DNA from: Candidatus Poriferihabitaceae bacterium
Lineage (GTDB): Bacteria > Pseudomonadota > Gammaproteobacteria > Arenicellales > Poriferihabitantaceae
Reading direction: 5' to 3'
Assembly: GCA_965262585.1 (NCBI GenBank)
Contig: OZ253546.1
Coordinates: 1,098,547 to 1,162,546 of the forward strand
Length of the DNA stretch: 64,000 nucleotides
Shown here in pieces: positions 43,066 through 62,830 of the stretch (positions within the stretch are counted from its first letter, which is position 1; each line of letters opens with the position of its first letter). Under the pieces are notes generated by a model. The model did no database searches. It was given only the letters and a program-made list of their open reading frames with translations, and was not told the origin of the DNA. The translations under genes and the position numbers were made by a program.

Positions 43066-43380
43066 TCGCGGCATCCCTGCCACCCGGCAACCCAACGGCC
43101 ATCCTCGCCGCTAGGCATGCGTCCCGGCAATCCCTGGGTTCAAACGGGGCACTCAACCCGCCGCCATCCTCAGCTTCCCTACAAACCCAATTTCCGGCCA
43201 GTGCCAATTTCCGACACCGCCTGTCCTCCTTGGACACGCACATAATGCGTCAATGATGCAAAGGATGGTGTGGCATATCGCACAATTACGGGGGGATCTT
43301 GTTGCCCTGAATCTAACGTTTCCACCTCAGGTTAAATTCACCCTTCCCGTTCCCAGCCCTCGTAGGGACAGGTCGCGACC

Positions 43381-43447
43381 TGTCCTTTTAAGGAGCGGCT
43401 ACGCCGCACATGTCTTCCTGGATTCCCGCTTTCGCGGGAATGACGGG
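43381..43447. repeat. REP-type element (TTAAGGAGCGGCTACGCCGCAC...CTGGATTCCCGC-TTTC-GCGGGAATGAC)
   Basis: Alignable to 1111-1177. A second palindrome, GGACAGGTCGCGACCTGTCC, precedes it at about 43358-43377. Confidence 0.8.
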
Positions 43448-43508
43448 ATTATATTTTTGGGAATTACATACTTGACTTGCCAATCACCGCATAACCCCAT
43501 TTTCGGAT

Positions 43509-43537
43509 TTGACAAATCTGTCAAATATGCCTACTAT
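43509..43537 (+). promoter_or_regulatory. Candidate sigma-70 promoter (TTGACA-17 bp-TACTAT) embedded in the palindrome TTTGACAAATCTGTCAAA
   Basis: A consensus -35 at 43509-43514 and a -10-like TACTAT at 43532-43537, about 155 bp upstream of the OMP gene. Confidence 0.35.
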
Positions 43538-43693
43538 TCGCCGCGTACTCACTATTGCTGGAATCCCGTGTTGGGTTTCCTGTCGAATATAAGACCTTCG
43601 GGGAATAAACAGGCACACTGTTATCCTGCAATGTGAGTACAAGCCCAGCATCTTTGCTGGATACCTCAATGTACTAACAAACAGGATAAAACC

Positions 43694-44347
43694 ATGAAAA
43701 AGCAAATTATGACCGCAGCAACCACTCTCGCACTGCTAACCGTAGCCCCCGCGTATGCGGAATTTCGGGTTGGGGTTGAGGCTGGCTCTTCGTCCGTATC
43801 TGGCGAACTTCAGTCGGGAGGCAATCATGTCCTGGGAGGCAATGAGAGCGGTGGTGCGATTGGCGTTTTTGGGCAATACCGCTTTGAGGCCAGCGATACG
43901 CTGGATTGGGGGGTTCATCTTGGTTATTCCTCTGAATCTGCCGATGTGGATGCCGCATATGGCACAGTGACCCTTGCGGGAGTAACATATACCGATGCAG
44001 TCATTGAGATTGAGGTGGAATCAACCTACGACTTAATGGGGATTATCGCGTGGAAAGGCGGAAAAGCAAATCCGTTCATAATGGCCGGATACAGCACCAT
44101 CCAAATCGATGGCTCTGCTTCTGGAACAAACAGCGGGACAAGGACAACGATTAGCGATGACGATTCTGCGTCTGGCTGGAAGGTCGCTATCGGCGTTGAG
44201 TTCCCGCTTGGCGAGTCGTGGAGTGCCCACGCAGTGATTGACTATGCCGATTACGGCGATCTAGACTTTAATTCCGATTCTGACCTTGACCTTGAGTTTG
44301 AAACTGAGCAAACTGGCATCGGTATCGGCATCAGTTACAGGTTTTAA
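43694..44347 (+). CDS. Small outer-membrane beta-barrel protein (OmpA-like/OmpW-like barrel family)
   Basis: Signal peptide ending AYA, alternating-hydrophobicity beta strands, and the C-terminal aromatic signature GIGISYRF. Confidence 0.7.
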   Translation: MKKQIMTAATTLALLTVAPAYAEFRVGVEAGSSSVSGELQSGGNHVLGGNESGGAIGVFGQYRFEASDTLDWGVHLGYSSESADVDAAYGTVTLAGVTYTDAVIEIEVESTYDLMGIIAWKGGKANPFIMAGYSTIQIDGSASGTNSGTRTTISDDDSASGWKVAIGVEFPLGESWSAHAVIDYADYGDLDFNSDSDLDLEFETEQTGIGIGISYRF

Positions 44348-44375
44348 CAATCGAGAAATACCGGAGGGTACTGTT

Positions 44376-44684
44376 ATGAACACAAAGAAAGCAAAATCAC
44401 CGTTAAATGGTAGCGTTGATTTGCTGTCGAAAGCCTTGCGTGATGTTATTGTTGAGGCGGTCGCCCATGACCGACTAGAAACAAGAGAGGTGTTGCGCGC
44501 TGGCATTAGAGAAGATGTTCGTATCGCCGTGAAAGAGTCTGAGAGCGTATTGCTCGAATCCCACGAAAGCGATATGAAGGAATTTTCCAAGAAGGTCGAT
44601 AGTAGCGGACAAGTAACCATCGAAAACACCCAAGCCCAAATCGCAGAACTCCGCAAAGAGATAATGCAATCAAGGCCAGGGTAA
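44376..44684 (+). CDS. Hypothetical protein (charged, helical)
   Basis: ATG at 44376 preceded by a GGAGGG RBS. 102 aa with no recognisable motif. Confidence 0.45.
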   Translation: MNTKKAKSPLNGSVDLLSKALRDVIVEAVAHDRLETREVLRAGIREDVRIAVKESESVLLESHESDMKEFSKKVDSSGQVTIENTQAQIAELRKEIMQSRPG

Positions 44685-44706
44685 CTCCACACACCAAACC
44701 AAGATT

Positions 44707-44737
44707 ATAGCCGCCCTGTTGGGCGGCTATTTTTTGT
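44707..44737 (+). terminator. Rho-independent terminator
   Basis: ATAGCCGCCC-TGTT-GGGCGGCTAT followed by TTTTTGTTT. Confidence 0.7.
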
Positions 44738-44769
44738 TTGTTGGTTCTTCCTTGTTGCTTTTTGTGAAA

Positions 44770-44852
44770 TTAAAGGGGTCAGTGTGAATTAAATTGATTA
44801 TACGGCCGAGAAGGGATGGGGGTTTATTTAATTCACACTGACCCCTTTATTC
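44770..44852 (+). repeat. Palindromic cassette-boundary element, copy R1
   Basis: AAAGGGGTCAGTGTGAATTAAAT - 31-nt asymmetric centre (TGATTATACGGCCGAGAAGGGATGGGGGTTT) - ATTTAATTCACACTGACCCCTTTAT. Confidence 0.95.
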
Positions 44853-44885
44853 TTCCGGTCAAGTGGATGCAATTGTTAAGCATGA

Positions 44886-45647
44886 TTAGAATCGAATATT
44901 TCCTAAATAAGGACGAATATTAAATGTTTTCATACTCGCTTGATTCAAAACTATGCTCATCATGGCATAAAATAATAATAATGGCTTTTCTGTCAAACTA
45001 GCAACATTTTTTGAAGTTAGGTCTGGAGTTATACGAAACATATCATCTGATGTTTGATTGAGAATAACTCCTTTGTTTAAAATACAAATAGAATCAATAC
45101 GCTTATGAACTGGCAATAAGTTCTGAAGTTCAACAAGATTAGTCAACACGGAATCTAGGTTTGGAGAATCGAAAGCGAACACAAAATGTTGCATTGGCCA
45201 ATCTTCCCATTTTTTACCATATAAAGTCTTCTTTTCAATCAAAATTGAATTAGGAGAAAAGAATGCTTTTTTTTCCAATTTTTTAACACTTTTCATATTA
45301 TCAAAAGCTTTTTCCAATTCGCTCTTGTCTAAATAAGCTTTAACCTCGATAACTGCGTACACACATTCAACAGGTATAACTCGCACATTTTCCGATTGAT
45401 AAAATATAGGCGTTTTAGCTGAATCATGAATGATAATATCTAATTGTCTAGAGACTCCACCATTTGAATCAACAATAGTACCTGAACTAATATCTAAAGT
45501 TCTAGGCAAATATTGCCTTAGAAAATCTTTAACAATCTGTTCATTTGCCGCTCCCTTTAAACCGGAATGATTTAAAGCTTTCCTAGATTTTTCGAAATCA
45601 GATAACATCTGAATAGAAACTTCATTAAAAATGTCTGATAGATTCAT
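44886..45647 (-). CDS. Cassette A: PD-(D/E)xK nuclease-fold protein, DUF6602-like
   Basis: AT-rich 253-aa ORF. GAANEQIVKDFLRQYLP ... SRQLDIIIHD ... VYAVIEVK gives an E / D / E-x-K arrangement and resembles the DUF6602 N-terminal pattern as I recall it. Confidence 0.55.
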   Translation of the reverse strand: MNLSDIFNEVSIQMLSDFEKSRKALNHSGLKGAANEQIVKDFLRQYLPRTLDISSGTIVDSNGGVSRQLDIIIHDSAKTPIFYQSENVRVIPVECVYAVIEVKAYLDKSELEKAFDNMKSVKKLEKKAFFSPNSILIEKKTLYGKKWEDWPMQHFVFAFDSPNLDSVLTNLVELQNLLPVHKRIDSICILNKGVILNQTSDDMFRITPDLTSKNVASLTEKPLLLFYAMMSIVLNQASMKTFNIRPYLGNIRF

Positions 45648-45653
45648 TTTAAA

Positions 45654-45734
45654 AATAAAGGGGTCAGTGTGAATAAATTGATTATACAGCCAAAAAGGAT
45701 GAGGGTTTATTTAATTCACACTGACCCCTTTATT
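45654..45734 (+). repeat. Palindromic cassette-boundary element, copy R2
   Basis: Same element and orientation as R1, with a 1-nt deletion in the left arm. It starts 7 nt from the cassette A start codon. Confidence 0.95.
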
Positions 45735-45806
45735 GCGTCACCGTAATCACTTAATCGGTTATGCTGATGCCTAACCTACCAACCACGGGGCAATTTTGAA
45801 CACGCT

Positions 45807-48800
45807 ATGCTCAACAAAATATCCCTCGACGACAAGTATGCGCTGGATGCGACTCGTGCTTATTTGACTGGCATTGAGGCGTTGGTGCGGCTGCCGATTT
45901 TGCAGCATCAGCGGGATCTCGAGGCCGGGTTGAATACGGCCGGTTTCGTTTCCGGGTATCGGGGTTCGCCGGTGGGGACGGTGGATCAGGCGATGTGGAA
46001 GGCGGCGGCGTGGTTGGACAAGCACCATATCCGTTTTCAGCCCGGCATCAACGAGGATTTGGCGGCGACCGCGGTTTGGGGCACTCAGCAAACCCACTTG
46101 TTGCCGGGGGCGAAATACGACGGCGTGTTCGCGCTTTGGTATGGCAAGGGGCCCGGCGTCGACCGCAGCATGGATGTGATTAAGCACGCCAACGCTTTTG
46201 GCACCACGCAATACGGCGGCGTGCTGGCGGTGGCCGGCGACGACCACGCTTGCAAGTCCTCCACGGTTCCGCATCAGAGCGAGCACATGTTCATCGGTGC
46301 CGCCGTGCCGGTGCTCAATCCGGCCAACGTTCAGGATGTGCTGGATTATGGAATCTACGGCTGGGCGTTGTCGCGCTATAGCGGGTGCTGGGTGGGGCTG
46401 AAAGCCATCACTGAAAACATGGATTCGGCGATCTCTGCGGACATCGATCCGGCCCGTGTGCAAATCCGCCTGCCCCACGATTTCGAGGAACCGCCGGGCG
46501 GCTTGAACGCGCACTGGCCCACCACGCCGCTAGAGCAAGAACAACTGCTGCACAAATACCGCATCTACGCCGCCCGCGCTTTCGCGTATGCCAACCACCT
46601 CAACCGGGTAACCCTCGACACGCCCAACCCGAGGCTTGGCATCGTAACTTCAGGGAAATCCCATCTCGATGTCATGGAAGCATTGCAAGACCTGGGCATC
46701 GACCAAAACACCGCCGGCGAAATTGGTATCCGCATCTATAAGGTCGGCATGAGTTGGCCGCTGGAACCCATCGCCACCCACCGCTTCGCCAAGGGCCTTC
46801 AAGAAATTCTGGTGGTGGAGGAAAAGCGCAGCATCCTTGAAGACCAAATCACCGGGCAACTATACAACTGGCCGGTGGCCGAGCGTCCCATGGTGGTGGG
46901 GGAATTCGACGAACACGGCAACGACTTGGTCACCAACCTCGGCGAACTAACCCCGGCGATGGTGGCGCGCGCTATCGGCAGTCGCGTTACCCGCTTTTAC
47001 GAAAGCCGCAGCATCCGCGAGCGGCTGGAGTTTCTCGACGCCAAAGAGCGACGCCTTGCCGCCCCCCACGAGTCGCTGACCCGCACTCCTTATTTTTGCT
47101 CCGGCTGTCCGCACAATACCTCGACGCGGGTTCCCGACGGCAGCGTTGGCATGGCCGGAATCGGCTGTCATTACATGGCCAAGTGGATGAACCGCAACAC
47201 CGAAACCTTCACCCAGATGGGCGGCGAAGGCGCGTCTTGGATCGGCATGGCGCCATTCACAAAAACCAAACATGTGTTCCAGAACATCGGTGATGGCACC
47301 TATTTTCACAGCGGCCTGCTTGCCATCCGCGCCGCCGTCTCCGCCGGTGTCAACATCACCTACAAGGTGTTACTCAACGACGCCGTCGCCATGACCGGCG
47401 GGCAACCGGTGGACGGCTCGCTGACCCTTGCGGAATTGGCGGCGCAGTTGCAGGCCGAAGGTGTTGTGCGGCTTGCGGTGGTTGCCGAAGATGTCAAAAA
47501 AGCCCAAAGCAAACTGCGCGGATTTAATCGCATCACCGTCCACCCACGGCGCGAATTCGACCAACTTCAACTGCAGTTTCGGGAAGTCAAAGGCACCAGC
47601 GTAATCATCTATGACCAGACCTGCGCCGCCGAAAAACGCCGCCGCCGCAAGCGCGGGCTGATGCCGGAAAGCCCGGCCCGGGTATTCATCAACGCCGAAG
47701 TTTGCGAAGGTTGCGGCGACTGCAGCACCACCTCCAACTGCCTGTCAGTATTGCCGAAAAAAACCGACCTCGGCGTCAAGCGACAGATCGACCAAAGTGC
47801 CTGCAACAAAGACTTCACCTGCCTCGACGGCTTCTGCCCAAGTTTTGTCACCGTCACCGGCGCCGTCTTGCGAAAGCCAAGCGACACACAAAGCGAAAGC
47901 CTGGAAGTGGTGCTCCCGGAGCCGCGACTGCCGCGCATCGAAAGGCCGTGGAACATCCTGGTCACCGGCATCGGCGGTACCGGCGTGCTCACCGTGGGTT
48001 CGCTGGTGGCCATGGCCGCCCACATCGAAGGCAAGGGCTGCGCAACCTTAAACCAAACTGGACTGGCGCAGAAATTCGGCGCGGTGGTCAGCCATGTGCG
48101 CATCGCCAAAAATCAAAACCAAATCCACGCGGTGCGCATTCCCGAAGGCGATGCCGACTTGCTGCTCGGTTGTGATTTGGTAGTCTCCGCCATGCCCGAA
48201 GCGCTGGCGCGGCTCGATGCGAAACGATCTCATTCGGTGGTGAACACCCATGAAAACCCCACCGCGGATTTCATTCACGATGCGCAGTATCGATTCCCCG
48301 GTGAATCCATGCGGCAACTGATCCGCGACGAAACCGGCACCGACAAAACCGCCTTCGTCAACGCCACCCGCATCGCCCGGGACTTGCTGGGCGACTCCAT
48401 CGGCGGCAATCTATTTTTGCTGGGCTTCGCGTATCAGCGCGGCCTGATTCCGGTCAGCGCCGAAGCCATCGACCGGGCTATCGAATTAAACGATGTTGCG
48501 GTGGAATTCAATCGCCGGGCATTTTTGTGGGGACGGCGCGCGGCGGTGAATCTTGAAGTGGTAGAAAACCTCGCCGGCCATAATCCCAAGCCCGCTTCGA
48601 CCACTCCGACATTAACCGGCGTGGATGAGATCATCGCCCAGCGGCATCGCCACCTGACCGCTTATCAGAACCGAAAATACGCCGACCGATACCGTGTGCT
48701 GGTGGAGCGCGTTCGGGATTTCGAAAACCAATTCACCGGCGGTGGCGATGAAACGGCCAACCTCACCGAAGCGGTGGCGCGTAATTATTTCAAACTGCTG

Positions 48801-49286
48801 GCGTATAAAGACGAATACGAAATCGCGCGGCTGTATTCCAACGGCGACTTCATCAACAACCTAAAAAAGCAATTCGCCGGTCCTTTCAAACTCAATTTCC
48901 ACCTCGCACCACCGCTACTGGCGCGCAAAGACCCGTTGACCGGCCACCCAATCAAACGCCGCTTCCCCGGCCTCACGCTGCAATTTTTCAACTTGCTCGC
49001 ACGCCTCAAATTCGTGCGTGGAACGCAACTGGATTTATTCGGCCACAGCCCGGAACGCAAACAAGAACGACAACTGATTGCGGATTATGAAAACGATCTG
49101 GCACAACTACTAAAATCGATAACCGCCGACAACTACTCAACCGCAATAGCCATCGCCGACCTACCAGAAATAGTCAAAGGCTTCGGCCACATCAAAATAG
49201 CCCACATCCAAAAATACCACGAAAGAAAAAAAGAACTACTCCGAAAATTCCACGGACCGGAAATAAAAGGGGTCAGTGTGAATTAA
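45807..49286 (+). CDS. Indolepyruvate:ferredoxin oxidoreductase family protein (fused alpha/beta)
   Basis: 1159 aa, GC-rich. N-terminus LDDKYALDATRAYLTGIEALVRLPI, a TPP-binding region, ferredoxin-type Cys cluster CEGCGDC, and a PFOR-gamma-like domain (ILVTGIGGTGV). The last 6 codons and the stop come from element R3. Confidence 0.9.
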   Translation: MLNKISLDDKYALDATRAYLTGIEALVRLPILQHQRDLEAGLNTAGFVSGYRGSPVGTVDQAMWKAAAWLDKHHIRFQPGINEDLAATAVWGTQQTHLLPGAKYDGVFALWYGKGPGVDRSMDVIKHANAFGTTQYGGVLAVAGDDHACKSSTVPHQSEHMFIGAAVPVLNPANVQDVLDYGIYGWALSRYSGCWVGLKAITENMDSAISADIDPARVQIRLPHDFEEPPGGLNAHWPTTPLEQEQLLHKYRIYAARAFAYANHLNRVTLDTPNPRLGIVTSGKSHLDVMEALQDLGIDQNTAGEIGIRIYKVGMSWPLEPIATHRFAKGLQEILVVEEKRSILEDQITGQLYNWPVAERPMVVGEFDEHGNDLVTNLGELTPAMVARAIGSRVTRFYESRSIRERLEFLDAKERRLAAPHESLTRTPYFCSGCPHNTSTRVPDGSVGMAGIGCHYMAKWMNRNTETFTQMGGEGASWIGMAPFTKTKHVFQNIGDGTYFHSGLLAIRAAVSAGVNITYKVLLNDAVAMTGGQPVDGSLTLAELAAQLQAEGVVRLAVVAEDVKKAQSKLRGFNRITVHPRREFDQLQLQFREVKGTSVIIYDQTCAAEKRRRRKRGLMPESPARVFINAEVCEGCGDCSTTSNCLSVLPKKTDLGVKRQIDQSACNKDFTCLDGFCPSFVTVTGAVLRKPSDTQSESLEVVLPEPRLPRIERPWNILVTGIGGTGVLTVGSLVAMAAHIEGKGCATLNQTGLAQKFGAVVSHVRIAKNQNQIHAVRIPEGDADLLLGCDLVVSAMPEALARLDAKRSHSVVNTHENPTADFIHDAQYRFPGESMRQLIRDETGTDKTAFVNATRIARDLLGDSIGGNLFLLGFAYQRGLIPVSAEAIDRAIELNDVAVEFNRRAFLWGRRAAVNLEVVENLAGHNPKPASTTPTLTGVDEIIAQRHRHLTAYQNRKYADRYRVLVERVRDFENQFTGGGDETANLTEAVARNYFKLLAYKDEYEIARLYSNGDFINNLKKQFAGPFKLNFHLAPPLLARKDPLTGHPIKRRFPGLTLQFFNLLARLKFVRGTQLDLFGHSPERKQERQLIADYENDLAQLLKSITADNYSTAIAIADLPEIVKGFGHIKIAHIQKYHERKKELLRKFHGPEIKGVSVN

Positions 49287-49345
49287 ATTGATTATATGGC
49301 GAAGAAAGGATGGGGGTTTATTTAATTCATACTGACTCCTTTATT
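49262..49345 (+). repeat. Palindromic cassette-boundary element, copy R3
   Basis: Same element. The left arm holds the stop of the oxidoreductase gene (49284-49286). The right arm holds the stop of cassette B (49322-49324). Confidence 0.95.
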
Positions 49346-50467
49346 CTTTTTAGATTTGTTTTTCTCTTTTTCAAGTAACTTAAACAACTGATCGCGCATT
49401 TCTTTAGCTTGTAATTCTTTAGCATCCCATTCTTGTTGGTTTTTAGGTTTTCTACCGAATTCGTCTTGTGTGGCTATAAGCTTCCCTCCATCACCAACAA
49501 TAATTATTCCTCTATCATGTCCAATAGACCTAAATTCTCTGGATATTAATATCTTATCCAATTTTTCCCAGTCTGTACTATTTAGCTGCTTTTCAGGAAA
49601 TAACCATTCTTTTTGTGCAGCAGCAATGTATCTGGATGCTCTACTTTTAAGAATATAATTTATCCCTAATACTGACTGAGTATCTAATTTTCGCCCCCTA
49701 ATAATATCATCATATTTAACTATTGTATCGTCGAAGTATCGAGCATTAGTCCTAGATTTAAGTGCTTTTAATTTTCCAGGATTTCTGGCGTATTCAGTAT
49801 TTGTTAGAATAACACAGTGATTTAAATCTATTGGAAAAATTGTTCTTGTTCCCATTAGCTCAATTCCTGGGTCATTAGGAAATTCACAGTATTTTGATTT
49901 AGGGTAGCAAGCAGGGTTATATGTAGTAATGGGTGTATCGCTAACTATGAATTTAATATCCGAATCTTCGGCACTTACAACTTCCATAACTGCTTCTGCC
50001 CACATGGTGCAATTCATTTGGCGTACAGTTTGCATTTCATGGAGTAAAGTATTGTAATCTTTTGGCTTCAATGTATTTATTAGCCAATTTAGACCCCGTG
50101 GTGTTCTAAGTTTCTGAGCATCCATATATTCAAAAAAGTTTAGGACATGAGGGTGTAGTTTCCTCATCCAGTTATCAGATGCTAAGACTGGGAGTGCACG
50201 CGAACCTATAGTATCTATTTTTCCAAATAGGTGTGTTTCAATATCATCATTATCTATTCCAAAGTATTTAGTAGTATACAAGTCAATTTCGTAGAATAAT
50301 TTACGTGGTCCTTTTTGTACTACCTCTCCTTTTTTTATTACTGTTCCATCAGGTATTTTTTCTGTTTTTGGATGAAAGTCTAATCTATGATATGACGATT
50401 GCCCTTTGAGCATGAAGCGCCTTTGATACCATATTGGCACATAATGGTGTTTATGTGATATTGCCAT
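49322..50467 (-). CDS. Cassette B: DUF4238-family protein
   Basis: AT-rich 381-aa ORF beginning MAISHKHHYVPIWYQRRF, the H-Y-V-P-x-x-Y-x-x-x-F signature I associate with DUF4238. Confidence 0.7.
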   Translation of the reverse strand: MAISHKHHYVPIWYQRRFMLKGQSSYHRLDFHPKTEKIPDGTVIKKGEVVQKGPRKLFYEIDLYTTKYFGIDNDDIETHLFGKIDTIGSRALPVLASDNWMRKLHPHVLNFFEYMDAQKLRTPRGLNWLINTLKPKDYNTLLHEMQTVRQMNCTMWAEAVMEVVSAEDSDIKFIVSDTPITTYNPACYPKSKYCEFPNDPGIELMGTRTIFPIDLNHCVILTNTEYARNPGKLKALKSRTNARYFDDTIVKYDDIIRGRKLDTQSVLGINYILKSRASRYIAAAQKEWLFPEKQLNSTDWEKLDKILISREFRSIGHDRGIIIVGDGGKLIATQDEFGRKPKNQQEWDAKELQAKEMRDQLFKLLEKEKNKSKKNKGVSMN

Positions 50468-50485
50468 TTCATTTATATGATTTCA

Positions 50486-50568
50486 AATAAAGGGGTCAGT
50501 GTGAATTAAATTGATTATACGGCCACGAAGGGATGAGGGTTTATTTAATTCACACTGACCCCTTTATT
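50486..50568 (+). repeat. Palindromic cassette-boundary element, copy R4
   Basis: Near-consensus copy. It lies 18 nt from the cassette B start and abuts the cassette C stop codon. Confidence 0.95.
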
Positions 50569-50569
50569 C

Positions 50570-51484
50570 TTATAGAATCTCATGTATCCGTAAATAAATA
50601 TTGCCTGTTTCTGAGGCTTTGCGACGTTTACGTAGCAATAATTGAACTAAATCAATTCTGCCCTCTAAAACAGCCATTAAATCACTACCATCCATAAGAA
50701 TTATAAGGCGTCTACCAGAAGAGTGTACTTTTACTGCATCTTCTGAGAAACCGTTAACTGATAGGAATAGCCCAAGTGTATTCTCTAACTTACGGGATAA
50801 CTTGCCAATCATTCCGTCTAGATCTTTTGCTGCCACAGGTTTTTGTTGCCATTTCGCCTCTAGTAGATAATCCGTCCCCTCAAAACTAAATGCACCATCT
50901 ATTTGTTCGCCAGTAATTTTAAAGGATGCTTTAGGATCGAGATCAAATAGGTCAAATAGACCTTTTAATACTTTCTCAAGGTTGTATCCACGTTGTTGCG
51001 GGTTATCAGAGCTAGCTAGCAAACAAAATTCTGTTTTTAGTTTATCCAATCCACCTTGAACGGCATTAACTTGCATGAGTTTATCGTGTGCTTTTTGACG
51101 ACGTTCTTCAGATTGCTTTTGTTCTTCTTCTATATCTTGATGTCCTTTCAATTGAGCACGAAGGGCTTCTACTGCTGCCTTAGCTTCTTCTGCCTTTTTA
51201 TTGCCATCCTCTAGCTTTCGCAGATGTGAAAAGTCTGTAACATCACTTACCTCTGACATTATACGAATGAGATCACGCTGACACACCTCCTCATTCATCG
51301 CCAAGTGGTCTACTACTGTAGCTACTATATTTCTTTTGTATTCTTCCCAATTTAGACGTGAAAGAATCCCTGGATCAGATATGCATTGAGATAGAAAACT
51401 GCGCAATTCTGATTTGTACCAGTAAATGAGCGTTAAAGCTTCCTTTAGTGCCTGTATCGCTGCGGGTGCTATTGTTTTCTGCAT
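50570..51484 (-). CDS. Cassette C: helical/coiled-coil N-domain fused to an Mrr-like PD-(D/E)xK restriction-endonuclease-fold C-domain
   Basis: AT-rich 304-aa ORF. A central Glu/Lys coiled coil, then C-terminal RGYNLEKVLKGLF ... GEQIDGAFSFEGTDYLLEAKWQQKPV ... LFLSVNGFSEDA (E / D / E-x-K core). Confidence 0.55.
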   Translation of the reverse strand: MQKTIAPAAIQALKEALTLIYWYKSELRSFLSQCISDPGILSRLNWEEYKRNIVATVVDHLAMNEEVCQRDLIRIMSEVSDVTDFSHLRKLEDGNKKAEEAKAAVEALRAQLKGHQDIEEEQKQSEERRQKAHDKLMQVNAVQGGLDKLKTEFCLLASSDNPQQRGYNLEKVLKGLFDLFDLDPKASFKITGEQIDGAFSFEGTDYLLEAKWQQKPVAAKDLDGMIGKLSRKLENTLGLFLSVNGFSEDAVKVHSSGRRLIILMDGSDLMAVLEGRIDLVQLLLRKRRKASETGNIYLRIHEIL

Positions 51485-51485
51485 G

Positions 51486-51568
51486 AATAAAAAGATCAGT
51501 GTGAATTAAATTGATTATACAGCCAAGAAGAGATGGGGGTTTATTTAATTCACACTGACTCCTTTATT
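51486..51568 (+). repeat. Palindromic cassette-boundary element, copy R5
   Basis: Same element with GGGG changed to AAGA in the left arm. It starts 1 nt from the cassette C start codon. Confidence 0.9.
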
Positions 51569-51582
51569 CCTTGTTAGATCGT

Positions 51583-52026
51583 TCATACCGAACTATCTAA
51601 AGTTCGTTTAATCATTGATGTCATATCACCAATTGCTCTGTATATATCATCACCTATTTGACATTTAATCAAAGAATCCTCCTCTGTTTTATAACCATGT
51701 ATTTTACTTTGTAGAAGTTGTGTTTTAGTTTCGAATTCTCCAATCTTAAATTTGTGGGCATTATCCTGAACTTTATCTAAAAAATCTTGAATACTATTTA
51801 TTACAGTTTGAGAATCTACACCACGCATAGGTTTGTTGGCCGGTGTTACAATTTTTCTGCACTCTTCTCTTGCACGATTCGCTGAAGATGCTAATTCAAT
51901 CAGTACAATTTTCAACCTATCTGATTTTATTTCTTCTTTATAAGTTTTTGCCTTATATGCCTGCCAAAAAGATAAGCTAGTTCCTATGAAGGTCAACCCA
52001 ATAGCAACAATATTCCAAAAATCCAT
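51583..52026 (-). CDS. Cassette D, gene 2: small protein with one N-terminal TM helix, unknown function
   Basis: 147 aa. A hydrophobic helix FWNIVAIGLTFIGTSLSFW is followed by a charged helical domain. The start lies 1 nt after the stop of the upstream gene. Confidence 0.5.
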   Translation of the reverse strand: MDFWNIVAIGLTFIGTSLSFWQAYKAKTYKEEIKSDRLKIVLIELASSANRAREECRKIVTPANKPMRGVDSQTVINSIQDFLDKVQDNAHKFKIGEFETKTQLLQSKIHGYKTEEDSLIKCQIGDDIYRAIGDMTSMIKRTLDSSV

Positions 52027-52027
52027 T

Positions 52028-52561
52028 TTATGCCATCCATGATGTGTCTACTATTTCGAGACCTGCTCTTTCAAAATATGAGTCGTAGTCATAAGTAGTT
52101 ATCAAAGAATTTAGCAATCGAAAAAAATGATATTTGTCTTTTGCTACGGTTAATTTTTCAATATCGTTAGTATCACGGTTAAACACCATTTGGGGAAGAG
52201 GAAGTTGACAACGTCCTCCATCAACAGTAACGTAAATGTCCCGATAAACTAATTGGCCGTAATAAAAAAAATCAACATAGCCACTTGATGCATGTGGATC
52301 TGGAAAGCCATTAGCCCATTTTTCTTTAAAGTCATCATTATGGGAAATTCCCCAAGCGACAGAGATAGACAGATCACTTTTAAGTGAAATTAATTCATCA
52401 TGCGAATCAACTTTTATATTGCTAAATTCTCCACCGCCTGTATTCCAAACTACAAATTTATTGAAGTATGAAGGCCCTGACCCGGATCCCCAGCAAGCAA
52501 TTCGATTCCAATCTTCTTTTTCTGCATCAAGAATCTGATCTTGATATTCTTTTAAATTCAT
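52028..52561 (-). CDS. Cassette D, gene 1: hypothetical soluble protein, no recognisable domain
   Basis: 177-aa AT-rich ORF with no motif I can assign. Confidence 0.5.
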   Translation of the reverse strand: MNLKEYQDQILDAEKEDWNRIACWGSGSGPSYFNKFVVWNTGGGEFSNIKVDSHDELISLKSDLSISVAWGISHNDDFKEKWANGFPDPHASSGYVDFFYYGQLVYRDIYVTVDGGRCQLPLPQMVFNRDTNDIEKLTVAKDKYHFFRLLNSLITTYDYDSYFERAGLEIVDTSWMA

Positions 52562-52627
52562 AAGTCCTCGTAAAATATTTTAGAGTTAACGTCTAGTATA
52601 AGGCAGTTTCGCCCTAATGCAAGAGTA

Positions 52628-52708
52628 GTAAAAAAGTCAGTATAAATTAAATTAATTATACAACCAAAAAGAGCTGAAGCTTTATTTAATTCACACCACC
52701 CCCTTTAT
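52628..52708 (+). repeat. Palindromic cassette-boundary element, degenerate copy R6
   Basis: AAAAAGTCAGTATAAATTAAAT...ATTTAATTCACACCACCCCCTTTAT. The right arm holds the last codons and the stop (52686-52688) of the paiB-like gene. Confidence 0.8.
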
Positions 52709-53336
52709 CCTGCCCTCGCACTACCTCAGCCATTTCCACGCTTGCTTGCCGTTCCTCTTTTAGCAGTCCTTCGACTACGCCGTGGCGGTCGTGGGGTGGG
52801 CGGTTTTGGCTGGCTTTGTATTTGCCGGTTAGGCGGGTGATGGGTATTTCAAGGCCGACGATGGCGTCCAGTTGTTGGGTGATAAAATCATCTGGCGCGT
52901 CCGTTACTTTCCATGGTTGGGGGCGGTTGGCTTCGTGGTGGTTGGTGAGGCGTTCGACTAACTCGCGTAGCCATGCGCGGTCTTCAATTACTCGCAATGA
53001 ACCGTGTGCGTGGACGACCGCGTAGTTCCAGGTCGGCACGACTTGCCCGGTGGTTTGTTTGGTCGCATACCAGGACGGGGAAATGTAGGCGTCGGGGCCG
53101 CGGAATATCGCCAGCGAGTCGGCTTCGGGGGAATACTCGCGCCATAGTGGGTTGGCGCGTGCAATGTGGCCGCGCAAGGTGCCGAAAGGGGCCGGGTCGG
53201 GGGTCGTCTCAAAGGGAATATGATGCGCGTCCAGTCCGTTTGCGGTGAGCGTCACCAGCGTTGCCAGCGGATACGCACGCATTAAGTCATGGAGAATTTC
53301 AACCCGCGTTTCCGCAAAGTATTTGGGTGTATACAT
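52686..53336 (-). CDS. FMN-binding negative transcriptional regulator (PaiB family)
   Basis: GC-rich 216-aa ORF. MYTPKYFAE...LATLVT...HIPF...GHIARANP follows the PaiB pattern. Confidence 0.85.
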   Translation of the reverse strand: MYTPKYFAETRVEILHDLMRAYPLATLVTLTANGLDAHHIPFETTPDPAPFGTLRGHIARANPLWREYSPEADSLAIFRGPDAYISPSWYATKQTTGQVVPTWNYAVVHAHGSLRVIEDRAWLRELVERLTNHHEANRPQPWKVTDAPDDFITQQLDAIVGLEIPITRLTGKYKASQNRPPHDRHGVVEGLLKEERQASVEMAEVVRGQDKGGGVN

Positions 53337-53345
53337 AAACGTCTC

Positions 53346-53600
53346 TCAAGTTTTTTGTTGGACAATCTGCTCCAGCGTTTCCTGCCAAATCTGATAGTAG
53401 GCGTCGTTGTCTTTAATCGCGTTGTGTTTTTCGAATTTGGCGATGTTGTTGGCTAGTAGTGCCGCCCATTCCTTCCATGTGAACAATCCCGATTGATTAA
53501 GTTGCACCGCCAGCGCAAAGGTTCGTGCTTGCCACGGTGCGGCGAAGACTGGTTCGCCGTTGGCTTGGGGTTGTCCGGCGATGGCTTTAAGACGCGCCAT
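53346..53600 (-). CDS. Nitrile hydratase accessory (activator) protein
   Basis: The short ORF PVFAAPWQARTFALAVQL...FTWKEWAALL is typical of NHase accessory proteins. The start is placed at the ATG at 53600; the longer ORF-track version is unlikely. Confidence 0.65.
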   Translation of the reverse strand: MARLKAIAGQPQANGEPVFAAPWQARTFALAVQLNQSGLFTWKEWAALLANNIAKFEKHNAIKDNDAYYQIWQETLEQIVQQKT

Positions 53601-54279
53601 CCACCGCCTCCAGATACGCTTCGAATAAATCGACATACACCGCCAACCGCCCCGTTTCTTTTTCATCCCACAGTTGTTCCGTTTCAAAACGCACGCTATA
53701 AAGATGTTGCGATTGTTTTTCCCCGCGCGCCGCGTGTGCGTCCGGAAAAACATGCGCGCCGTGATGATAGACGATTATGCCGTGGCGGCCGTGCGTGTAA
53801 CGCGGTGCGCGGGTGTGGGGTTGGGGCATCACCGCCCGCACTGTGACGCGGGTGTCGATGGCGAAACGCGGGGCGGTGTCGGCGGGCAGTTGGGTGGATG
53901 CGCCGCTACGCAGAATTTTCGCGATTTGTGCGCGCTCAACTGCGGGTAACTCTCCGCCGCCGACCGACTCGCCGCTTTGCAATTCGGTTTCGCTGACTAG
54001 GCCGTGCTCAACCAGCAGCAGTTCCAGACCATGCAACCAATGTTCATAATAACTGCCGGCGAGGTAATGCGCCGGTTCCATTTGTTCGCGGGCGCAACGC
54101 GATTGATCCAGATTCCATCGGCCAAGCATGCCGCAAGCGAGCGTCATGCCAAAAACGCTCTCCTCCCATTGCTTCGCAAACAACTCGCTCTGACTGCGGT
54201 CGACCGAACCGAAGCCGCGCATACCGCCGAGGTCATGGGCGAGGCCGAGGTCGGGGTCGTGAACGGGATAGTCGGACAT
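53587..54279 (-). CDS. nthB: Nitrile hydratase beta subunit
   Basis: N-terminal HDLGGM signature and the C-terminal SH3-like region of the beta subunit. The ATG at 54279 is preferred over the TTG at 54303. Confidence 0.85.
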   Translation of the reverse strand: MSDYPVHDPDLGLAHDLGGMRGFGSVDRSQSELFAKQWEESVFGMTLACGMLGRWNLDQSRCAREQMEPAHYLAGSYYEHWLHGLELLLVEHGLVSETELQSGESVGGGELPAVERAQIAKILRSGASTQLPADTAPRFAIDTRVTVRAVMPQPHTRAPRYTHGRHGIIVYHHGAHVFPDAHAARGEKQSQHLYSVRFETEQLWDEKETGRLAVYVDLFEAYLEAVDGAS

Positions 54280-54299
54280 AATGATTGCAGGTGTCCGGC

Positions 54300-54929
54300 T
54301 CAAGCAACCGAGTCGGCCAAAGCAACGCCGATCATCGAATCGCGCGTGATTAGTTTCGCCAACTGCCGGGTATCCAGATGTTCGCTACCGGGCGGTCTTT
54401 GTGGCAACACCAGATAGCGAATTTCCGCGGTCGAATCCCAGACGCGCACTTCAACTTCGTCATCCAGCGACACGCCAAATTCGGCCAACACCGCACGCGG
54501 TTCGCGCACCGCCCGGGCGCGATATTCAGACGCCTTATACCAAGTCGGCGGCAAGCCAAGCACCGGCCACGGATAACACGAACACAGCGTGCACACCACC
54601 AAGTTGTGCACCGCATCGGTGTTTTCTACAACCCGCATGTGTTCGCCTTGACGACCGGCATAACCCATTTCCATAATCGCGGCGGTGGCATCGGCAAGCA
54701 AACGTTGCTTGTATTCGGCATCAGTCCAAGCACGCGCAACCACCCGCGCACCGTTCTTCGGGCCAACGCGGTTTTCATAAGTATCCACCAACTCATCCAT
54801 CGCCTTAGCATCCACCAGTCCTTTTTCAATCAATAAATTTTCCAGCGACTTAACCCGCGCTTCGATTTCGCTCGGGCCGTGGTGATGATGGGGGTGTTTG
54901 TTCATGTCTTTACTCATGTCTTTACTCAT
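54300..54929 (-). CDS. nthA: Nitrile hydratase alpha subunit, cobalt type
   Basis: The metal-binding motif [11 protein letters not shown] (C-T-L-C-S-C-Y) is the cobalt-type signature; the iron type has C-S-L-C-S-C-T. Confidence 0.92.
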
Positions 54930-54938
54930 GCTATTTAC

Positions 54939-56360
54939 TTAGGGGATACGCCTGCGGTTCAAAGTTTGCTCGACGGTTGCGGCGATTTCATAAAGGTATT
55001 GATCTTCACCGTTACCGGCGGACAACATCAACCCCACCGGTGCTTGCCCCGGCGTATGACACGGCAGACTAACAGCGCAACCGTCAAAAAAATTAACCGT
55101 GGAAGTGTTGCGCAGGCATTTCATATTAACCTCGGGCATTTGTTCGACATCATCCGTCTCGGAAATAGCGGGTGGCACGCATTGCACGGTCGGATACACC
55201 AGCACATCGGCCCCGGCCTCGCGCATCTGCTGCCGACAAGCGACCACCAAAGCGGCCTTTTCTTGATAGCACTCGCGCCGCGCATCGGCATCAAACGCGC
55301 GCCCGGCACTCATCCGTTGGCGCACGAACGGATCGTATTCATCCCCCCGACTCTGCAAACGTTCTTGATGATCCTGCCACGCCTCAAACACCGCCACGGC
55401 GCGCCGCCGAAACATATCAACGCAACCTTCAAGCGCCGGCAGCGGAGCGCGATCCACGGTCACGCCATCATCCGCAAGCCACCGAAGCGCATCCTCAAAA
55501 GCCGCCGCGACTTGCGCATCGAGAGCCTCCATAACGATCGATTCGGGCACTAGCAAGCGAATGGATTTCGGTGGGCGAACTGACAATACCGGCAGCGGTT
55601 CGCCGTGTTTCAAACGCCCGGTTATGATGTGGTCGAGAATGAAACAACCATCCAAATCGTTAGCCAGCGGGCCCGGCGTATCCGAAGTCGGCGACAGCGG
55701 ATAAACACCGCGCAACGACACCCTGCCGTAGGTTGGCTTGACGCCGACTATGCCGTTGAACGCCGCCGGAACACGGCACGACCCGGCGGTATCCGAACCG
55801 ACACCGGCCGCCACAATCCCCTCGGCAACGCTCACCGCATTGCCCGAAGACGAGCCGCCCGGCAACCTGCCGATGTCGCGCTGCCAAATGCTTTTTGGGT
55901 TGCCGTAATGGGGGTTCAAACCCATGCCGCTAAAAGCAAATTCGCTCATGTTGGCGCGCCCGACAAACAACGCCCCGGCATCGCGCAAATGCCCGACCAC
56001 CACCGCATCAGCCTTCTCGACCGGCGCCTCGTCCCGCAACACCACCGAACCGGCAAGCGTCTGCTGGCCCTGCACATTAAATAAATCTTTAAGCGCAAGC
56101 GGCACCCCGGCAAGCACCGGCAACGGCTCACCATTAGCACGCGCACGGTCGATCTGAACAGCCTGCTGCAACGCATCGTAATTGATACGAATAAACACCC
56201 CTTCCGACCGCCCCGCCGCCGCCAACGCCTCCCCCACCACCCCCTCGCAACTCCCCCCACCATCCACAAAGGAATTAACCAGTTGCCGTATTGTCGGGTG
56301 GGTATGCATTGGAGCAATGTAGCCCGGATTTGTGGGACTGTCTAGTGGGGTAGCGTTCAT
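54939..56360 (-). CDS. Amidase (amidase-signature family)
   Basis: 473 aa with the AS-family Gly/Ser-rich block GGSSSGNAVSVA. It lies first in the operon with the NHase genes. Confidence 0.9.
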   Translation of the reverse strand: MNATPLDSPTNPGYIAPMHTHPTIRQLVNSFVDGGGSCEGVVGEALAAAGRSEGVFIRINYDALQQAVQIDRARANGEPLPVLAGVPLALKDLFNVQGQQTLAGSVVLRDEAPVEKADAVVVGHLRDAGALFVGRANMSEFAFSGMGLNPHYGNPKSIWQRDIGRLPGGSSSGNAVSVAEGIVAAGVGSDTAGSCRVPAAFNGIVGVKPTYGRVSLRGVYPLSPTSDTPGPLANDLDGCFILDHIITGRLKHGEPLPVLSVRPPKSIRLLVPESIVMEALDAQVAAAFEDALRWLADDGVTVDRAPLPALEGCVDMFRRRAVAVFEAWQDHQERLQSRGDEYDPFVRQRMSAGRAFDADARRECYQEKAALVVACRQQMREAGADVLVYPTVQCVPPAISETDDVEQMPEVNMKCLRNTSTVNFFDGCAVSLPCHTPGQAPVGLMLSAGNGEDQYLYEIAATVEQTLNRRRIP

Positions 56361-58271: not shown

Positions 58272-58930
58272 TTTTAAACACTTTATACGTACTTGGTGCA
58301 GTAGCAAGCATTAGGGATTTTTTTTATGATGGAGCAGCGAATCTTTCGCCATGGCTCATCTTGACTATCGGCGTGCTGTGTACAGCAACATTTTGGAAAA
58401 AAAATCGTTCGCCATGGATATTCTTGACTATCGGCGTGCTGTTCGTGGTGGTGATTTGGGGGTTAAATCGTTCGCCATCACCCCCTGCGAAGGATCAAGA
58501 AAGTGAAGAATCTATTGTGGTAACTCAAGAAAGTGAAGAATCTATTGTGGTAACTCAAGAAAGTGAAGAAGTGTTAGTTCCAGGAAATGAACAACTTGAA
58601 GAGTTAAATGAACACACCAATTTGACCTTAAGGAAATTGGAAATTGCTTTTTTATCCGCACAGAAAATATCTAGCACTATATCTCGCGATGAAACATTAG
58701 AACTTGTGATTACGAAGGCTTTACAAAGTGAAGAAGATAAATTTGCTTTTAAGGTTGCACTCCAAATTTCTTCTATCCGTTCTCGAGACAAGATGTTGAT
58801 AAGGATAATTGACAAGTCTCTGGAAAATGGAAATATAGATACTGCAGAATCAGTATCTAATAAGATTTCTTCCATCTTAACTCGTGATGAGGTAAAAAGA
58901 AAAATAGTTGATTTTATTTTTATAGACTAA
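58268..58930 (+). CDS. Repeat-containing membrane protein of unknown function inserted between mod and res
   Basis: 220 aa, AT-rich. Contains duplicated TM modules (SPWLILTIGVLCTATFWKKNR / SPWIFLTIGVLFVVVIWGLNR), QESEESIVVT at 2.5 copies, and three ISSxxSRDxxL..I helical repeats. The ATG overlaps the mod stop (ATGA). Confidence 0.55.
   Translation: MILNTLYVLGAVASIRDFFYDGAANLSPWLILTIGVLCTATFWKKNRSPWIFLTIGVLFVVVIWGLNRSPSPPAKDQESEESIVVTQESEESIVVTQESEEVLVPGNEQLEELNEHTNLTLRKLEIAFLSAQKISSTISRDETLELVITKALQSEEDKFAFKVALQISSIRSRDKMLIRIIDKSLENGNIDTAESVSNKISSILTRDEVKRKIVDFIFID
58496..58570 (+). repeat. Perfect 30-bp in-frame tandem repeat (2.5 copies) inside the membrane-protein gene
   Basis: CAAGAAAGTGAAGAATCTATTGTGGTAACT occurs twice, plus a 15-bp partial copy. 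Confidence 0.9.
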
Positions 58931-58980
58931 TAATTCAATGCACATTAAAAATCACCAACCCAAATCCCTGGAACATTGAT

Positions 58981-61527: not shown

Positions 61528-61643
61528 ACACCGCTTCTTTGGTAAATTTTTATCGCGATGCAGGATTTTATTGTGTAATCGCTTTGAGTATGCCGCCGCC
61601 TTGATTTATAATCTTTGCTCTGTTCACACAAACCTAAAACCAA

Positions 61644-62678: not shown

Positions 62679-62691
62679 CGGGGTTCGATAA

Positions 62692-62826: not shown

Positions 62827-62830
62827 GAAA

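What the first reader, a model, noticed from the sequence alone, without database searches (positions are those of the whole stretch)
44770..52708. Integron-like array of low-GC gene cassettes delimited by six co-oriented ~82-bp palindromic elements, with no attC signature and no recombinase in view
Six copies (R1-R6) of one element occur only in this stretch. The consensus is AATAAAGGGGTCAGTGTGAATTAAAT / TGATTATACGGCCGAGAAGGGATGGGGGTTT / ATTTAATTCACACTGACCCCTTTATT, that is, ~26-nt perfect inverted arms around an asymmetric 31-nt centre. The asymmetric centre has the same orientation in all six copies, and every enclosed AT-rich ORF is on the minus strand.

The layout is R1-[cassette A]-R2-(GC-rich core oxidoreductase gene)-R3-[B]-R4-[C]-R5-[D1 D2]-R6-(core paiB-like gene). 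So n cassettes are separated by n+1 elements. Gene ends sit 0-35 nt from the element and gene starts mostly 1-18 nt from it (about 66 nt for the D pair). This tight ORF-plus-recombination-site packing is what integron cassette arrays look like. Three of the four cassettes carry nuclease-fold or defence-associated domains, and chromosomal integron cassettes are known to be enriched in anti-phage genes.

However, the element lacks the R''/R' (RYYYAAC/GTTRRRY) boxes of attC, and no IntI or other recombinase is present in the 64 kb. It could be a new cassette-mobilising site, or a REPIN/MITE family that travels with AT-rich cargo. Because R2 and R3 are direct repeats, they could also mediate excision of the core oxidoreductase gene.
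Basis: partly seen in the sequence, partly recalled or inferred. Interest (0 to 1): 0.88.

Follow-up and report, generated by a model that had tools for sequence, protein, structure and literature searches.

The report
Palindromic repeat replacing integron attC sites
Six copies of an 83-base hairpin-forming repeat mark the borders of small foreign defence-type genes on both sides of a housekeeping gene in an uncultured, probably sponge-associated bacterium; comparison with sister strains shows these are fast-changing integron-type gene-cassette arrays in which the new repeat has taken the place of the normal integron recombination sites.

Summary
There are six co-oriented copies of an 83-bp element (E), with 26-nt inverted arms and a 31-nt asymmetric centre. 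They occur only at 44.77-52.71 kb and bound four low-GC cassettes.

- Two sister strains (~97% identical core DNA) have E at the same two hot spots flanking the oxidoreductase but carry different cassettes. Homology breaks exactly at E edges.
- One strain has a clean extra [cassette + E] unit.
- Relatives at 78-86% lack E.
An attC covariance model finds 3 and 6 classical attC sites inside the sister arrays, and 4 in a co-resident organism whose cassette is 93% identical to cassette B.
- The same model finds no attC in the window and never matches E. The window keeps only attC stubs.

E has no target-site duplications, no arm covariation, and no full copy in the public collections scanned. A solo arm occurs next to attC sites in four unrelated AT-rich integron arrays. 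No recombinase gene lies in the window.

Best reading (~0.55): E is a lineage-specific MITE/REPIN-like repeat that colonised integron-type arrays with no integrase nearby, displaced attC sites, and now mediates cassette gain and loss by E x E recombination. The enzyme is unknown.

The parts
44769..44851 (+). E copy R1. It marks the tail of the left array, downstream of cassette A.
44875..44881 (-). attC R'' stub (GCTTAAC, followed by 27 nt of a 5' half-site) between the stop of gene A and R1.
   Evidence: Compare the real attC starts GCTTAACAAGG and ATCTAACAAGG in L080.
44886..45647 (-). Cassette A gene: a NucC-like PD-(D/E)xK nuclease (DUF6602). Segment GC is 31%.
   Evidence: The same arrangement occurs in metagenome contig L020.
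45654..45734 (+). E copy R2, the head of the left array, next to the 5' side of the oxidoreductase. It is orthologous to L080rc 11987-12068 and L021 8804-8886.
45807..49286 (+). Core indolepyruvate-ferredoxin-oxidoreductase-family gene between the two arrays. Its last 6 codons and stop codon come from the left arm of R3.
49263..49345 (+). E copy R3, the tail of the right array. It is orthologous in all three strains.
49346..50485 (-). Cassette B (gene 49322-50467, DUF4238). Bases 49347-50482 are 93% identical to L079 8175-9310, where the gene is an ordinary attC-bounded cassette.
50486..50568 (+). E copy R4, with perfect 26-nt arms.
50570..51484 (-). Cassette C gene, with an Mrr_cat-type restriction-endonuclease-like C-terminal domain.
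   Evidence: 39% identity over 173 aa, E = 2e-36, to L021 4996-5874, which carries a weak Mrr_cat hit
51486..51568 (+). E copy R5.
51573..51579 (-). attC R'' stub (ATCTAACAAGG on the sense strand) between the stop of D1 and R5. It is identical to the first 11 nt of the real attC at L080 4078.
51583..52561 (-). Cassette D: two adjacent genes, D1 (51583-52026) and D2 (52028-52561), with no family hits.
52586..52616 (-). M2 junction motif (TAGGGCGAAACTGCCTTATACTAGACGTTAA). It recurs in front of different cassettes in four genomes, and cassette-specific sequence starts after its ACG|TT.
52627..52709 (+). E copy R6, the degenerate head of the right array. It is orthologous in all three strains, and its right arm supplies the stop codon of the paiB-like gene.
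52686..53336 (-). Core paiB-like (FMN_bind_2) gene bordering the right array.
43297..44768 (.). Strain-specific outer part of the left hot spot: non-coding DNA, an OMP beta-barrel gene (43694-44347), a 132-aa ORF and a terminator. It is absent from both sister strains and is not bounded by E on its left.

Best explanation
The six repeats are copies of a lineage-specific, non-coding, 83-bp palindromic repeat (E) of the MITE/REPIN kind. They sit at the junctions of two integron-type gene-cassette arrays that flank a core oxidoreductase gene in an uncultured, probably sponge-associated gammaproteobacterium.

The cassettes came from the ordinary integron pool and were once bounded by classical attC sites. 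E copies landed in or beside those junctions. Through deletions and recombination between E copies they replaced the attC sites. In this strain E is the only boundary left.

Recombination between E copies, with crossovers inside the 26-nt arms, now adds, removes and swaps [cassette + E] units. Each strain therefore carries a different set of defence-type genes.

Each E also has the architecture of a two-way transcription terminator: a GGGG...CCCC stem followed by TTTATT on either strand. It supplies stop codons to genes that run into it.

Shown here:
- the repeat and its layout;
- the hypervariability of the arrays, with breakpoints at E;
- the [cassette + E] indel;
- attC sites in the sister arrays and attC stubs in the window.

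Inferred, not shown:
- that E is itself mobile;
- that E x E recombination, rather than exchange through the flanking core genes, drives cassette turnover;
- the terminator role;
- the enzyme, which could be RecA or an unseen transposase or recombinase.
For: - E is real and is confined to the two hot spots in the window.
- Sister strains L021 and L080 have E copies at the same two hot spots but different cassettes. Alignments stop at E edges.
- L021 has a 1031-nt unit (cassette + M2 + inverted E) that is absent from L080 and the window. The join lies inside an arm.
- Relatives at 78-86% identity have no E. In L022 the oxidoreductase and paiB are convergent and only 46 nt apart, which fits cassettes having been inserted into a single ancestral E.
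- The attC covariance model finds 3 sites in L021, 6 in L080, 4 in L079 and none in the window, and it never hits E.
- attC stubs of varying length abut E: R'' plus 4, 9, 26, 27 or 41 nt upstream, and L'-R'-type halves downstream.
- Cassette B equals the attC-bounded cassette of L079, trimmed 12 nt inside its 5' boundary and 4 nt before the end of its stop codon.
- At the 3' end of the shared NERD gene, L080 keeps an attC-like site where L021 has E.
- E sits at three different distances from M2 and in both orientations, which implies independent arrivals.
- Identical centre variants occur at non-orthologous positions in different strains.
- A solo arm lies inside four unrelated AT-rich integron arrays, next to attC sites.
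- E is AT-rich like its cargo, not like the host.
- The RNA hairpin is -41 to -43 kcal/mol and is followed by UUUAUU.
Against: - None of 16 copies has a target-site duplication.
- No copy is a simple insertion with the same sequence continuing on both sides.
- No autonomous element, RAYT or transposase carrying these arms was found in GTDB representative genomes, JGI metagenomes, IMG/VR, plasmids or phages.
- The outer ends of the arms vary more than the inner parts, unlike typical transposon ends.
- Crossovers confined to 26-nt arms are short for RecA-dependent recombination.
- The genome-wide distribution of E is unknown, because only 64 + 23 + 21 kb of the three genomes could be read.
Confidence: 0.55

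Rival explanations
1. E is a dedicated recombination site of a new, IntI-independent cassette system. An unseen recombinase (tyrosine, serine, HUH or IS110-like) recognises the arms or the folded hairpin and excises and integrates [cassette + E] circles. In this lineage it has taken over arrays first built by an integron.
For: - Each array has n+1 E copies for n units, and both arrays are capped by E at head and tail in all three strains.
- There is a clean one-unit indel with the join inside an arm.
- There are no target-site duplications and no simple insertions.
- Most copies share one orientation: 6 of 6 in the window, 7 of 9 in L021 and 6 of 7 in L080.
- The composite E-CTCTTGCRY-M2 recurs in front of three different cassettes, as expected if head units are excised and re-integrated.
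- The convergent oxidoreductase and paiB genes each end in one arm, as if cassettes had been inserted into a single ancestral E.
Against: - No recombinase gene lies in the 64-kb window or the sister loci.
- Cassette ends are ragged relative to attC and to gene ends, not at a fixed crossover point.
- The outer junction of one and the same E differs by 13 nt between strains.
- The orientation rule is broken by three copies, two of them full-length.
- No cassette was seen at two different positions.
- No arm covariation supports a structural requirement.
Confidence: 0.22
2. E is a passive selfish repeat or terminator that accumulates in dispensable array DNA. Cassette turnover is driven entirely by integron recombination at attC sites elsewhere or earlier, and by homologous replacement through the conserved flanking genes after DNA uptake.
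For: - The same two intergenic sites are variable defence hot spots in relatives that lack E altogether: McrBC, AAA_14, PIN, HORMA and an SDH protease.
- A third variable defence region in the window has no E.
- attC sites persist in the sister arrays.
- Whole-array replacement between R3 and R6 needs only recombination in or near the core flanks.
Against: - Internal breakpoints between strains also fall exactly at E. These include the L021 5984 / L080rc 9168 boundary and the 1031-nt unit.
- Cassette B is cut exactly to the E edges on both sides.
- The window has lost every attC while keeping intact ORFs, which requires E-associated deletions.
Confidence: 0.18
3. E is a highly divergent attC that the integron integrase still uses.
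For: - It occupies the attC position in co-oriented arrays of cassettes.
- It is a hairpin of attC-like length.
Against: - The arms lack the invariant AAC/GTT triplets (one variant copy in L080 has such a triplet by point mutation).
- The 26-bp stem is perfect, with no unpaired spacer and no extrahelical bases.
- E scores nothing against an attC model that detects 13 true sites, including 8 outside its training set.
- Both strands fold equally well, so there is no basis for strand choice.
Confidence: 0.03

Closest known systems
Integron cassette arrays without a nearby integrase (CALIN; Cury et al. 2016, PMC4889954) and sedentary chromosomal integrons as stores of anti-phage genes (bioRxiv 10.1101/2024.07.02.601686)
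   Same: - Arrays of mostly single-gene, promoter-poor, co-oriented, low-GC cassettes.
- Extreme variation between strains.
- Defence-type cargo.
- True attC sites in the sister-strain arrays.
- No integrase in view.
   Different: - In the window every attC has been replaced by an unrelated 83-bp palindrome.
- The arrays sit between core genes on both sides of one housekeeping gene.
- Some units are multi-gene or plus-strand.
attC sites (for example the Vibrio cholerae repeats)
   Same: - A repeated, hairpin-forming element of 60-140 nt at the 3' end of each cassette.
- The same orientation along the array.
- Stop codons often lie inside the site.
   Different: - No R''/R' boxes, no unpaired spacer and no extrahelical bases.
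- A perfect 26-bp stem.
- The sequence is nearly identical between cassettes rather than cassette-specific.
- No match to the attC model.
REPINs (REP doublets mobilised by RAYT transposases)
   Same: - Two inverted ~26-nt repeats around a short spacer that form a long hairpin.
- Extragenic, often between convergent genes.
- No target-site duplication.
   Different: - No RAYT gene was seen.
- No GTAG-type head motif.
- AT-rich in a GC-rich host.
- Seen only inside foreign cassette arrays and only in one species, whereas REPINs are usually abundant genome-wide and vertically inherited (my own knowledge).
MITE-like palindromic repeats such as the Neisseria Correia elements and enterobacterial ERIC
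   Same: - About 80-150 bp, with long terminal inverted repeats.
- They insert at gene ends and can supply terminators, promoters and stop codons.
- They promote rearrangements.
   Different: - Those elements make TA duplications and are scattered over the genome (my own knowledge).
- E shows no duplication and is tied to cassette junctions.
Mobile elements that target attC sites (the IS1111-attC group and group IIC-attC introns)
   Same: E lives in integron arrays at or next to attC sites. A solo arm of E sits beside attC sites in four unrelated arrays.
   Different: - Those are autonomous, protein-coding elements that insert at a fixed position in attC.
- E is 83 bp and non-coding, and its position relative to attC varies.
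Acinetobacter pdif modules (XerC/XerD)
   Same: Short repeated sites that flank small gene modules, which differ between replicons.
   Different: - pdif sites are 28 bp and lie in alternating orientation.
- By eye, the arm of E matches only 7 of 11 positions of a XerD half-site and has no XerC half.

Membership tests
integron attC site (applied to the 83-bp element) | R'' (RYYYAAC) and R' (GTTRRRY) boxes with invariant AAC/GTT | tested here: not met
   No R''...R' pair in 14 copies on either strand. There is no AAC or GTT in the arms, except in one variant copy.
integron attC site (applied to the 83-bp element) | Imperfect hairpin with an unpaired central spacer and extrahelical bases | tested here: not met
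   The stem is an uninterrupted 24-26 bp, and both strands fold equally well. 91% of arm cells are paired and there are no conserved bulges.
integron attC site (applied to the 83-bp element) | Match to an attC covariance model | tested here: not met
   Model R1, built from 16 attC sites, finds 13 sites in L021, L080 and L079. It never hits E, even with filters off and E-value up to 10. This is my own model, not IntegronFinder's.
integron attC site (applied to the 83-bp element) | Recombined by an integron integrase | not testable with these tools
   This needs an in vivo or in vitro assay.
integron cassette array without integrase (CALIN), applied to the locus | At least two attC sites close together | tested here: not met
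   The window has 0 intact attC sites and only stubs. The orthologous arrays of the sister strains do meet the criterion, with 3 sites in L021 and 6 in L080.
integron cassette array without integrase (CALIN), applied to the locus | No intI within the locus | tested here: met
   No Phage_integrase hit in the window ORFs tested or in the gene lists of L021 and L080.
integron cassette array without integrase (CALIN), applied to the locus | Cassettes shared with bona fide attC-bounded cassettes elsewhere | tested here: met
   Cassette B is 93% identical to L079 8175-9310, which lies between attC sites at 8110-8168 and 9302-9358.
MITE | Short and non-coding, with terminal inverted repeats | tested here: met
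   83 bp with 26-nt arms.
MITE | Target-site duplication flanking the copies | tested here: not met
   No direct repeat longer than 3 nt at any of 16 copies (one has a 3-nt match), no better than mismatched flanks.
MITE | A parent insertion sequence with the same ends | tested here: inconclusive
   Exact 17-mer scans of GTDB representatives, JGI metagenomes and IMG/VR, and BLAST against plasmids and phages, found none. The host genomes themselves could not be scanned.
MITE | Insertion polymorphism at otherwise identical sites | tested here: inconclusive
   E at L080rc 5258-5340 lies between sequences that are contiguous in the window, but with about 41 nt replaced. All other junctions are recombinant.
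REPIN / RAYT system | Two inverted REP units that form a hairpin, located outside genes | tested here: met
REPIN / RAYT system | A cognate RAYT (Y1 HUH) gene flanked by REPs | not testable with these tools
   None lies in the window.
REPIN / RAYT system | Tens to hundreds of copies spread over intergenic DNA | tested here: inconclusive
   There are no copies in the roughly 55 kb of ordinary DNA in the window or in the core flanks of L021 and L080. The whole genomes were not seen.

The most novel reading that the evidence does not exclude
E is the recombination site of a previously undescribed, integrase-independent cassette system that has hijacked integron arrays. An unknown enzyme acts on the 26-nt arms or the folded hairpin to excise and insert [cassette + E] units. 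It captures ready-made integron cassettes and lets a genome with no local integrase keep shuffling its defence genes.
Probability: 0.22. Interest if true: 0.85.

Novelty: new variant of a known kind. Interest (0 to 1): 0.62.

Why it matters
Integron arrays are thought to depend on attC sites and IntI both for cassette shuffling and for long-term maintenance. Here a small palindromic repeat has displaced every attC in one strain's arrays, yet the arrays remain the most variable DNA between strains, with breakpoints at the repeat.

If the repeat drives the turnover, this is a second, integron-independent way to keep a defence-gene store fluid. It would also be a way for arrays stranded without an integrase to stay dynamic.

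The locus also offers a rare view of how a cassette is recut. The same gene is seen bounded by attC in one organism and bounded by the repeat in another organism from the same sample series.

If the repeat is only a selfish passenger, the locus is still a clear natural example of a repeat family specialised to integron arrays and spreading with their cassettes.

Tried and rejected
Searches that found nothing.
- Exact-arm scans of GTDB representative genomes, JGI metagenomes and IMG/VR found no full element, only chance single hits plus four solo arms.
- BLAST of the element against plasmids and phages gave nothing significant.
- Rfam gave only sub-threshold miRNA-hairpin noise.
- Exact look-up of the paiB-like protein found nothing on record.
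- Cluster look-up showed that the window cassettes are singletons.

Hypotheses tested without support.
- A strict RYYYAAC/GTTRRRY regular expression proved too strict as a control: it found one pair in a real array. I replaced it with a covariance model.
- The promoter scan gave 19 sites against 16.4 expected. The TATAAT in the centre has no usable -35, so I make no promoter claim for E.
- The terminator scan misses E because it caps loops at 8 nt.
- Hairpin covariation was no better than shuffles.
- No target-site duplications were found.
- I tested an 86-aa ORF upstream of M2 in L079 as a possible intI remnant. It had no integrase hit.
- I asked whether the 53%-GC S8-peptidase unit of L021 is displaced core DNA. 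It is not: it is unique to that strain, and the next hit is 58% identical.

Considered and dropped.
- Xer/dif-like reading of the arm: only 7 of 11 matches to a XerD half-site by eye, and no XerC half.
- DNA uptake sequence: no copies in core DNA.
- Assembly artefact: the structure recurs in three independent high-coverage long contigs and two low-coverage contigs.
Full report
**1.
The 26-nt arm occurs 10 times in the window (0 expected), and all matches lie between 44769 and 51568. Repeat finding, alignment and a profile search give six elements, all with the asymmetric 31-nt centre in the same orientation:
- R1 at 44769-44851
- R2 at 45654-45734
- R3 at 49263-49345
- R4 at 50486-50568
- R5 at 51486-51568
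- R6, degenerate, at about 52627-52709

R1 and R4 fold into 24-26-bp hairpins well beyond shuffled controls, whereas R6 no longer folds. The enclosed segments have 31-39% GC against 58% for the core. The arm reads KGVSVN-stop, so the oxidoreductase, cassette B and the paiB-like gene all end inside an arm. No ORF tested in the window has an integrase or transposase domain.

**2. Host and comparative frame.**
The oxidoreductase places the window in an uncultured gammaproteobacterium. Named relatives are Arenicellales and Candidatus Spongiihabitans. Homologues of one sister-strain cassette come from sponge symbionts.

Two sister strains were recovered: L021 (S1, a 1.94-Mb contig) and L080 (S2, a circular 2.64-Mb contig). 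Their core DNA is about 97% identical to the window. Both carry E on both sides of the oxidoreductase, with 9 copies or fragments in L021 and 7 in L080.

The genes between the E copies are entirely different from the window's. Alignments stop at the right arm of R2, at the end of R3 and at the start of R6. S1 and S2 share one block (NERD - E - SLFN - 187 aa - E) at core-like identity and differ elsewhere. Relatives at 78-86% identity have no E. In them the same two intergenic sites hold other defence genes, or nothing at all: in L022 the oxidoreductase and paiB are convergent and 46 nt apart.

**3. Unit-level change.**
S1 carries 1031 nt (L021 8886-9916) that S2 and the window lack. This unit consists of a DUF6694 cassette, the M2 motif and one E whose centre is inverted. 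The join falls inside the 26-nt arm. This is the footprint of recombination between E copies, or of its reverse.

Orientation is therefore not fixed. Cargo is not always AT-rich or minus-strand either: L021 16492-19299 has 53% GC and plus-strand genes.

**4. The arrays are integron arrays.**
Cassette B (49347-50482) is 93% identical to L079 8175-9310. L079 comes from a different organism (45-50% GC) in the same sample as S1 and S2. The homology ends within 1-3 nt of R3 and R4.

A search for TAACAAA...GTTA sites showed textbook attC sites in S1, S2 and L079. I aligned 16 attC sites. The consensus fold shows R''/R' pairing, a 5-nt unpaired spacer, an L stem with an unpaired base, and compensatory changes. 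I then built a covariance model from the alignment. Its results:
- 3 attC sites in L021, 6 in L080 and 4 in L079, of which 8 were outside the training set;
- none in the window, even with filters off;
- none in the E-free relatives;
- no hit to any E copy.

In L079, cassette B lies between attC sites at 8110-8168 and 9302-9358. The window copy is trimmed 12 nt inside the 5' crossover point and 4 nt before the end of the stop codon, so the ORF runs on into R3.

The window keeps only stubs: GCTTAAC plus 27 nt after gene A, and ATCTAACAAGG after D1. It also keeps M2 before D2. M2 is a motif found in front of at least 10 different cassettes in four genomes, and cassette-specific sequence begins after its ACG|TT. 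At the 3' end of the shared NERD gene, S2 still has an attC-like site where S1 has E.

**5. What E is.**
- E is not an attC.
- It has no target-site duplication at 16 copies.
- Its arms show no compensatory variation.
- It matches no Rfam family.
- No full copy exists in GTDB representative genomes, JGI metagenomes, IMG/VR, plasmids or phages.
- The only outside trace is a solo 24-nt arm, 20-105 nt upstream of a classical attC, in four AT-rich gammaproteobacterial integron arrays.
- E lies at variable distances from attC remnants and from M2, and in both orientations, which implies several independent arrivals.
- Identical centre variants sit at non-orthologous places in different strains.
- R2, R3 and R6 are orthologous in all three strains and predate their split.

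**6. Best explanation and rivals.**
I read E as a young, lineage-specific MITE/REPIN-like repeat that lives in integron arrays and probably arrived with cassettes. It has eroded and replaced attC sites, and it now serves as the recombination substrate that moves [cassette + E] units. It probably also acts as a two-way terminator: the RNA hairpin is -41 to -43 kcal/mol and is followed by UUUAUU (the terminator role is an inference).

The main rival is that E is a dedicated site for an unseen recombinase. The facts in its favour are the absence of duplications, the capping of both arrays by E, and the one-unit indel. The ragged, non-fixed junctions and the lack of any enzyme in view argue against it.

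A second rival treats E as a passive passenger. The same sites are hot spots without E in relatives, which supports that view. The internal breakpoints at E and the exact trimming of cassette B argue against it.

**7. Limits.**
Only 64 + 23 + 21 kb of the three genomes could be read. The genome-wide copy number of E and the presence of intI, RAYT or transposase genes are therefore unknown. The attC model is my own, with a shortened calibration. All strains are metagenome assemblies, although three independent high-coverage contigs and two low-coverage contigs agree.

Noticed in passing
L006 2853-2876, L008 2077-2100, L028 1189-1212, L061 1682-1705: A solo copy of the 24-nt arm (TAAAGGGGTCAGTGTGAATTAAAT) lies 20-105 nt upstream of a classical attC in four AT-rich gammaproteobacterial integron arrays. 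In L008 its outer 13 nt are tandemly duplicated. Similar duplications of the outer ~15 nt of E occur at L021 6753-6768 and L080 (reverse complement) 5341-5356.
   Followed up: partly
window 52586-52616 (-); L021 7988, 9828, 20246 (-); L080 512, 4548, 9964, 12406, 14017 (+); L079 6352 (+): A 31-nt motif, M2 (TAGGGCGAAACTGCCTTATACTAAACGTTAG), precedes many different cassettes. It is often part of a ~60-nt unit with TTGCAT-16 nt-TATACT. Three times it appears in the fixed composite E-CTCTTGCRY-M2. Cassette-specific sequence starts after ACG|TT, as at an integron crossover point. It could be an attI-like site, the attC of a promoter cassette, or a shared promoter.
   Followed up: partly
L021 8013-8158; L080 (reverse complement) 8827-8968 and 11200-11341: A ~142-nt non-coding repeat (92-94% identical) lies upstream of different cassettes in the sister strains.
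   Followed up: no
window 43311-43337: A mini R''/R'-type palindrome (ATTTAAC - 13 nt - GTTAGAT) sits at the inner edge of the left hot spot. It is the weak top hit of the attC model (E about 2). In strain S2 an E copy occupies this spot, with about 41 nt replaced.
   Followed up: partly
window 56652-63673: A third variable defence region lies after the amidase. It holds an N6_N4 methylase, a low-GC 220-aa gene, a ResIII helicase and an AbiJ-N-terminal-domain protein, and it has no E copies. Relatives carry other genes there (RloB/AAA_21, HicB, PIN, DUF1828).
   Followed up: partly
window 53587-56360: A nitrile hydratase beta and alpha subunit pair plus an amidase form a conserved core operon next to the right array. 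It is shared by all relatives examined.
   Followed up: no
window 43360-43450: Other hairpin-type repeats occur in the strain-specific left segment (CCTCGTAGGGACAGG...CCTGTCC and GGATTCCCGCTTTCGCGGGAATGAC). The first also occurs beside the leftmost E of strain S2.
   Followed up: no
L022 4690-4790: Four tandem ~24-nt repeats (GTTACAATTAGCCGGTTGAAA-like) lie upstream of an AAA_14/DUF4143 gene in an E-free relative.
   Followed up: no
L006 920-1822 (+): An IntI-type tyrosine recombinase (SAM_4 plus Phage_integrase domains) lies convergent with, rather than divergent from, the adjacent attC array. Its RHSF motif reads RYSY, so it may be inactive.
   Followed up: partly
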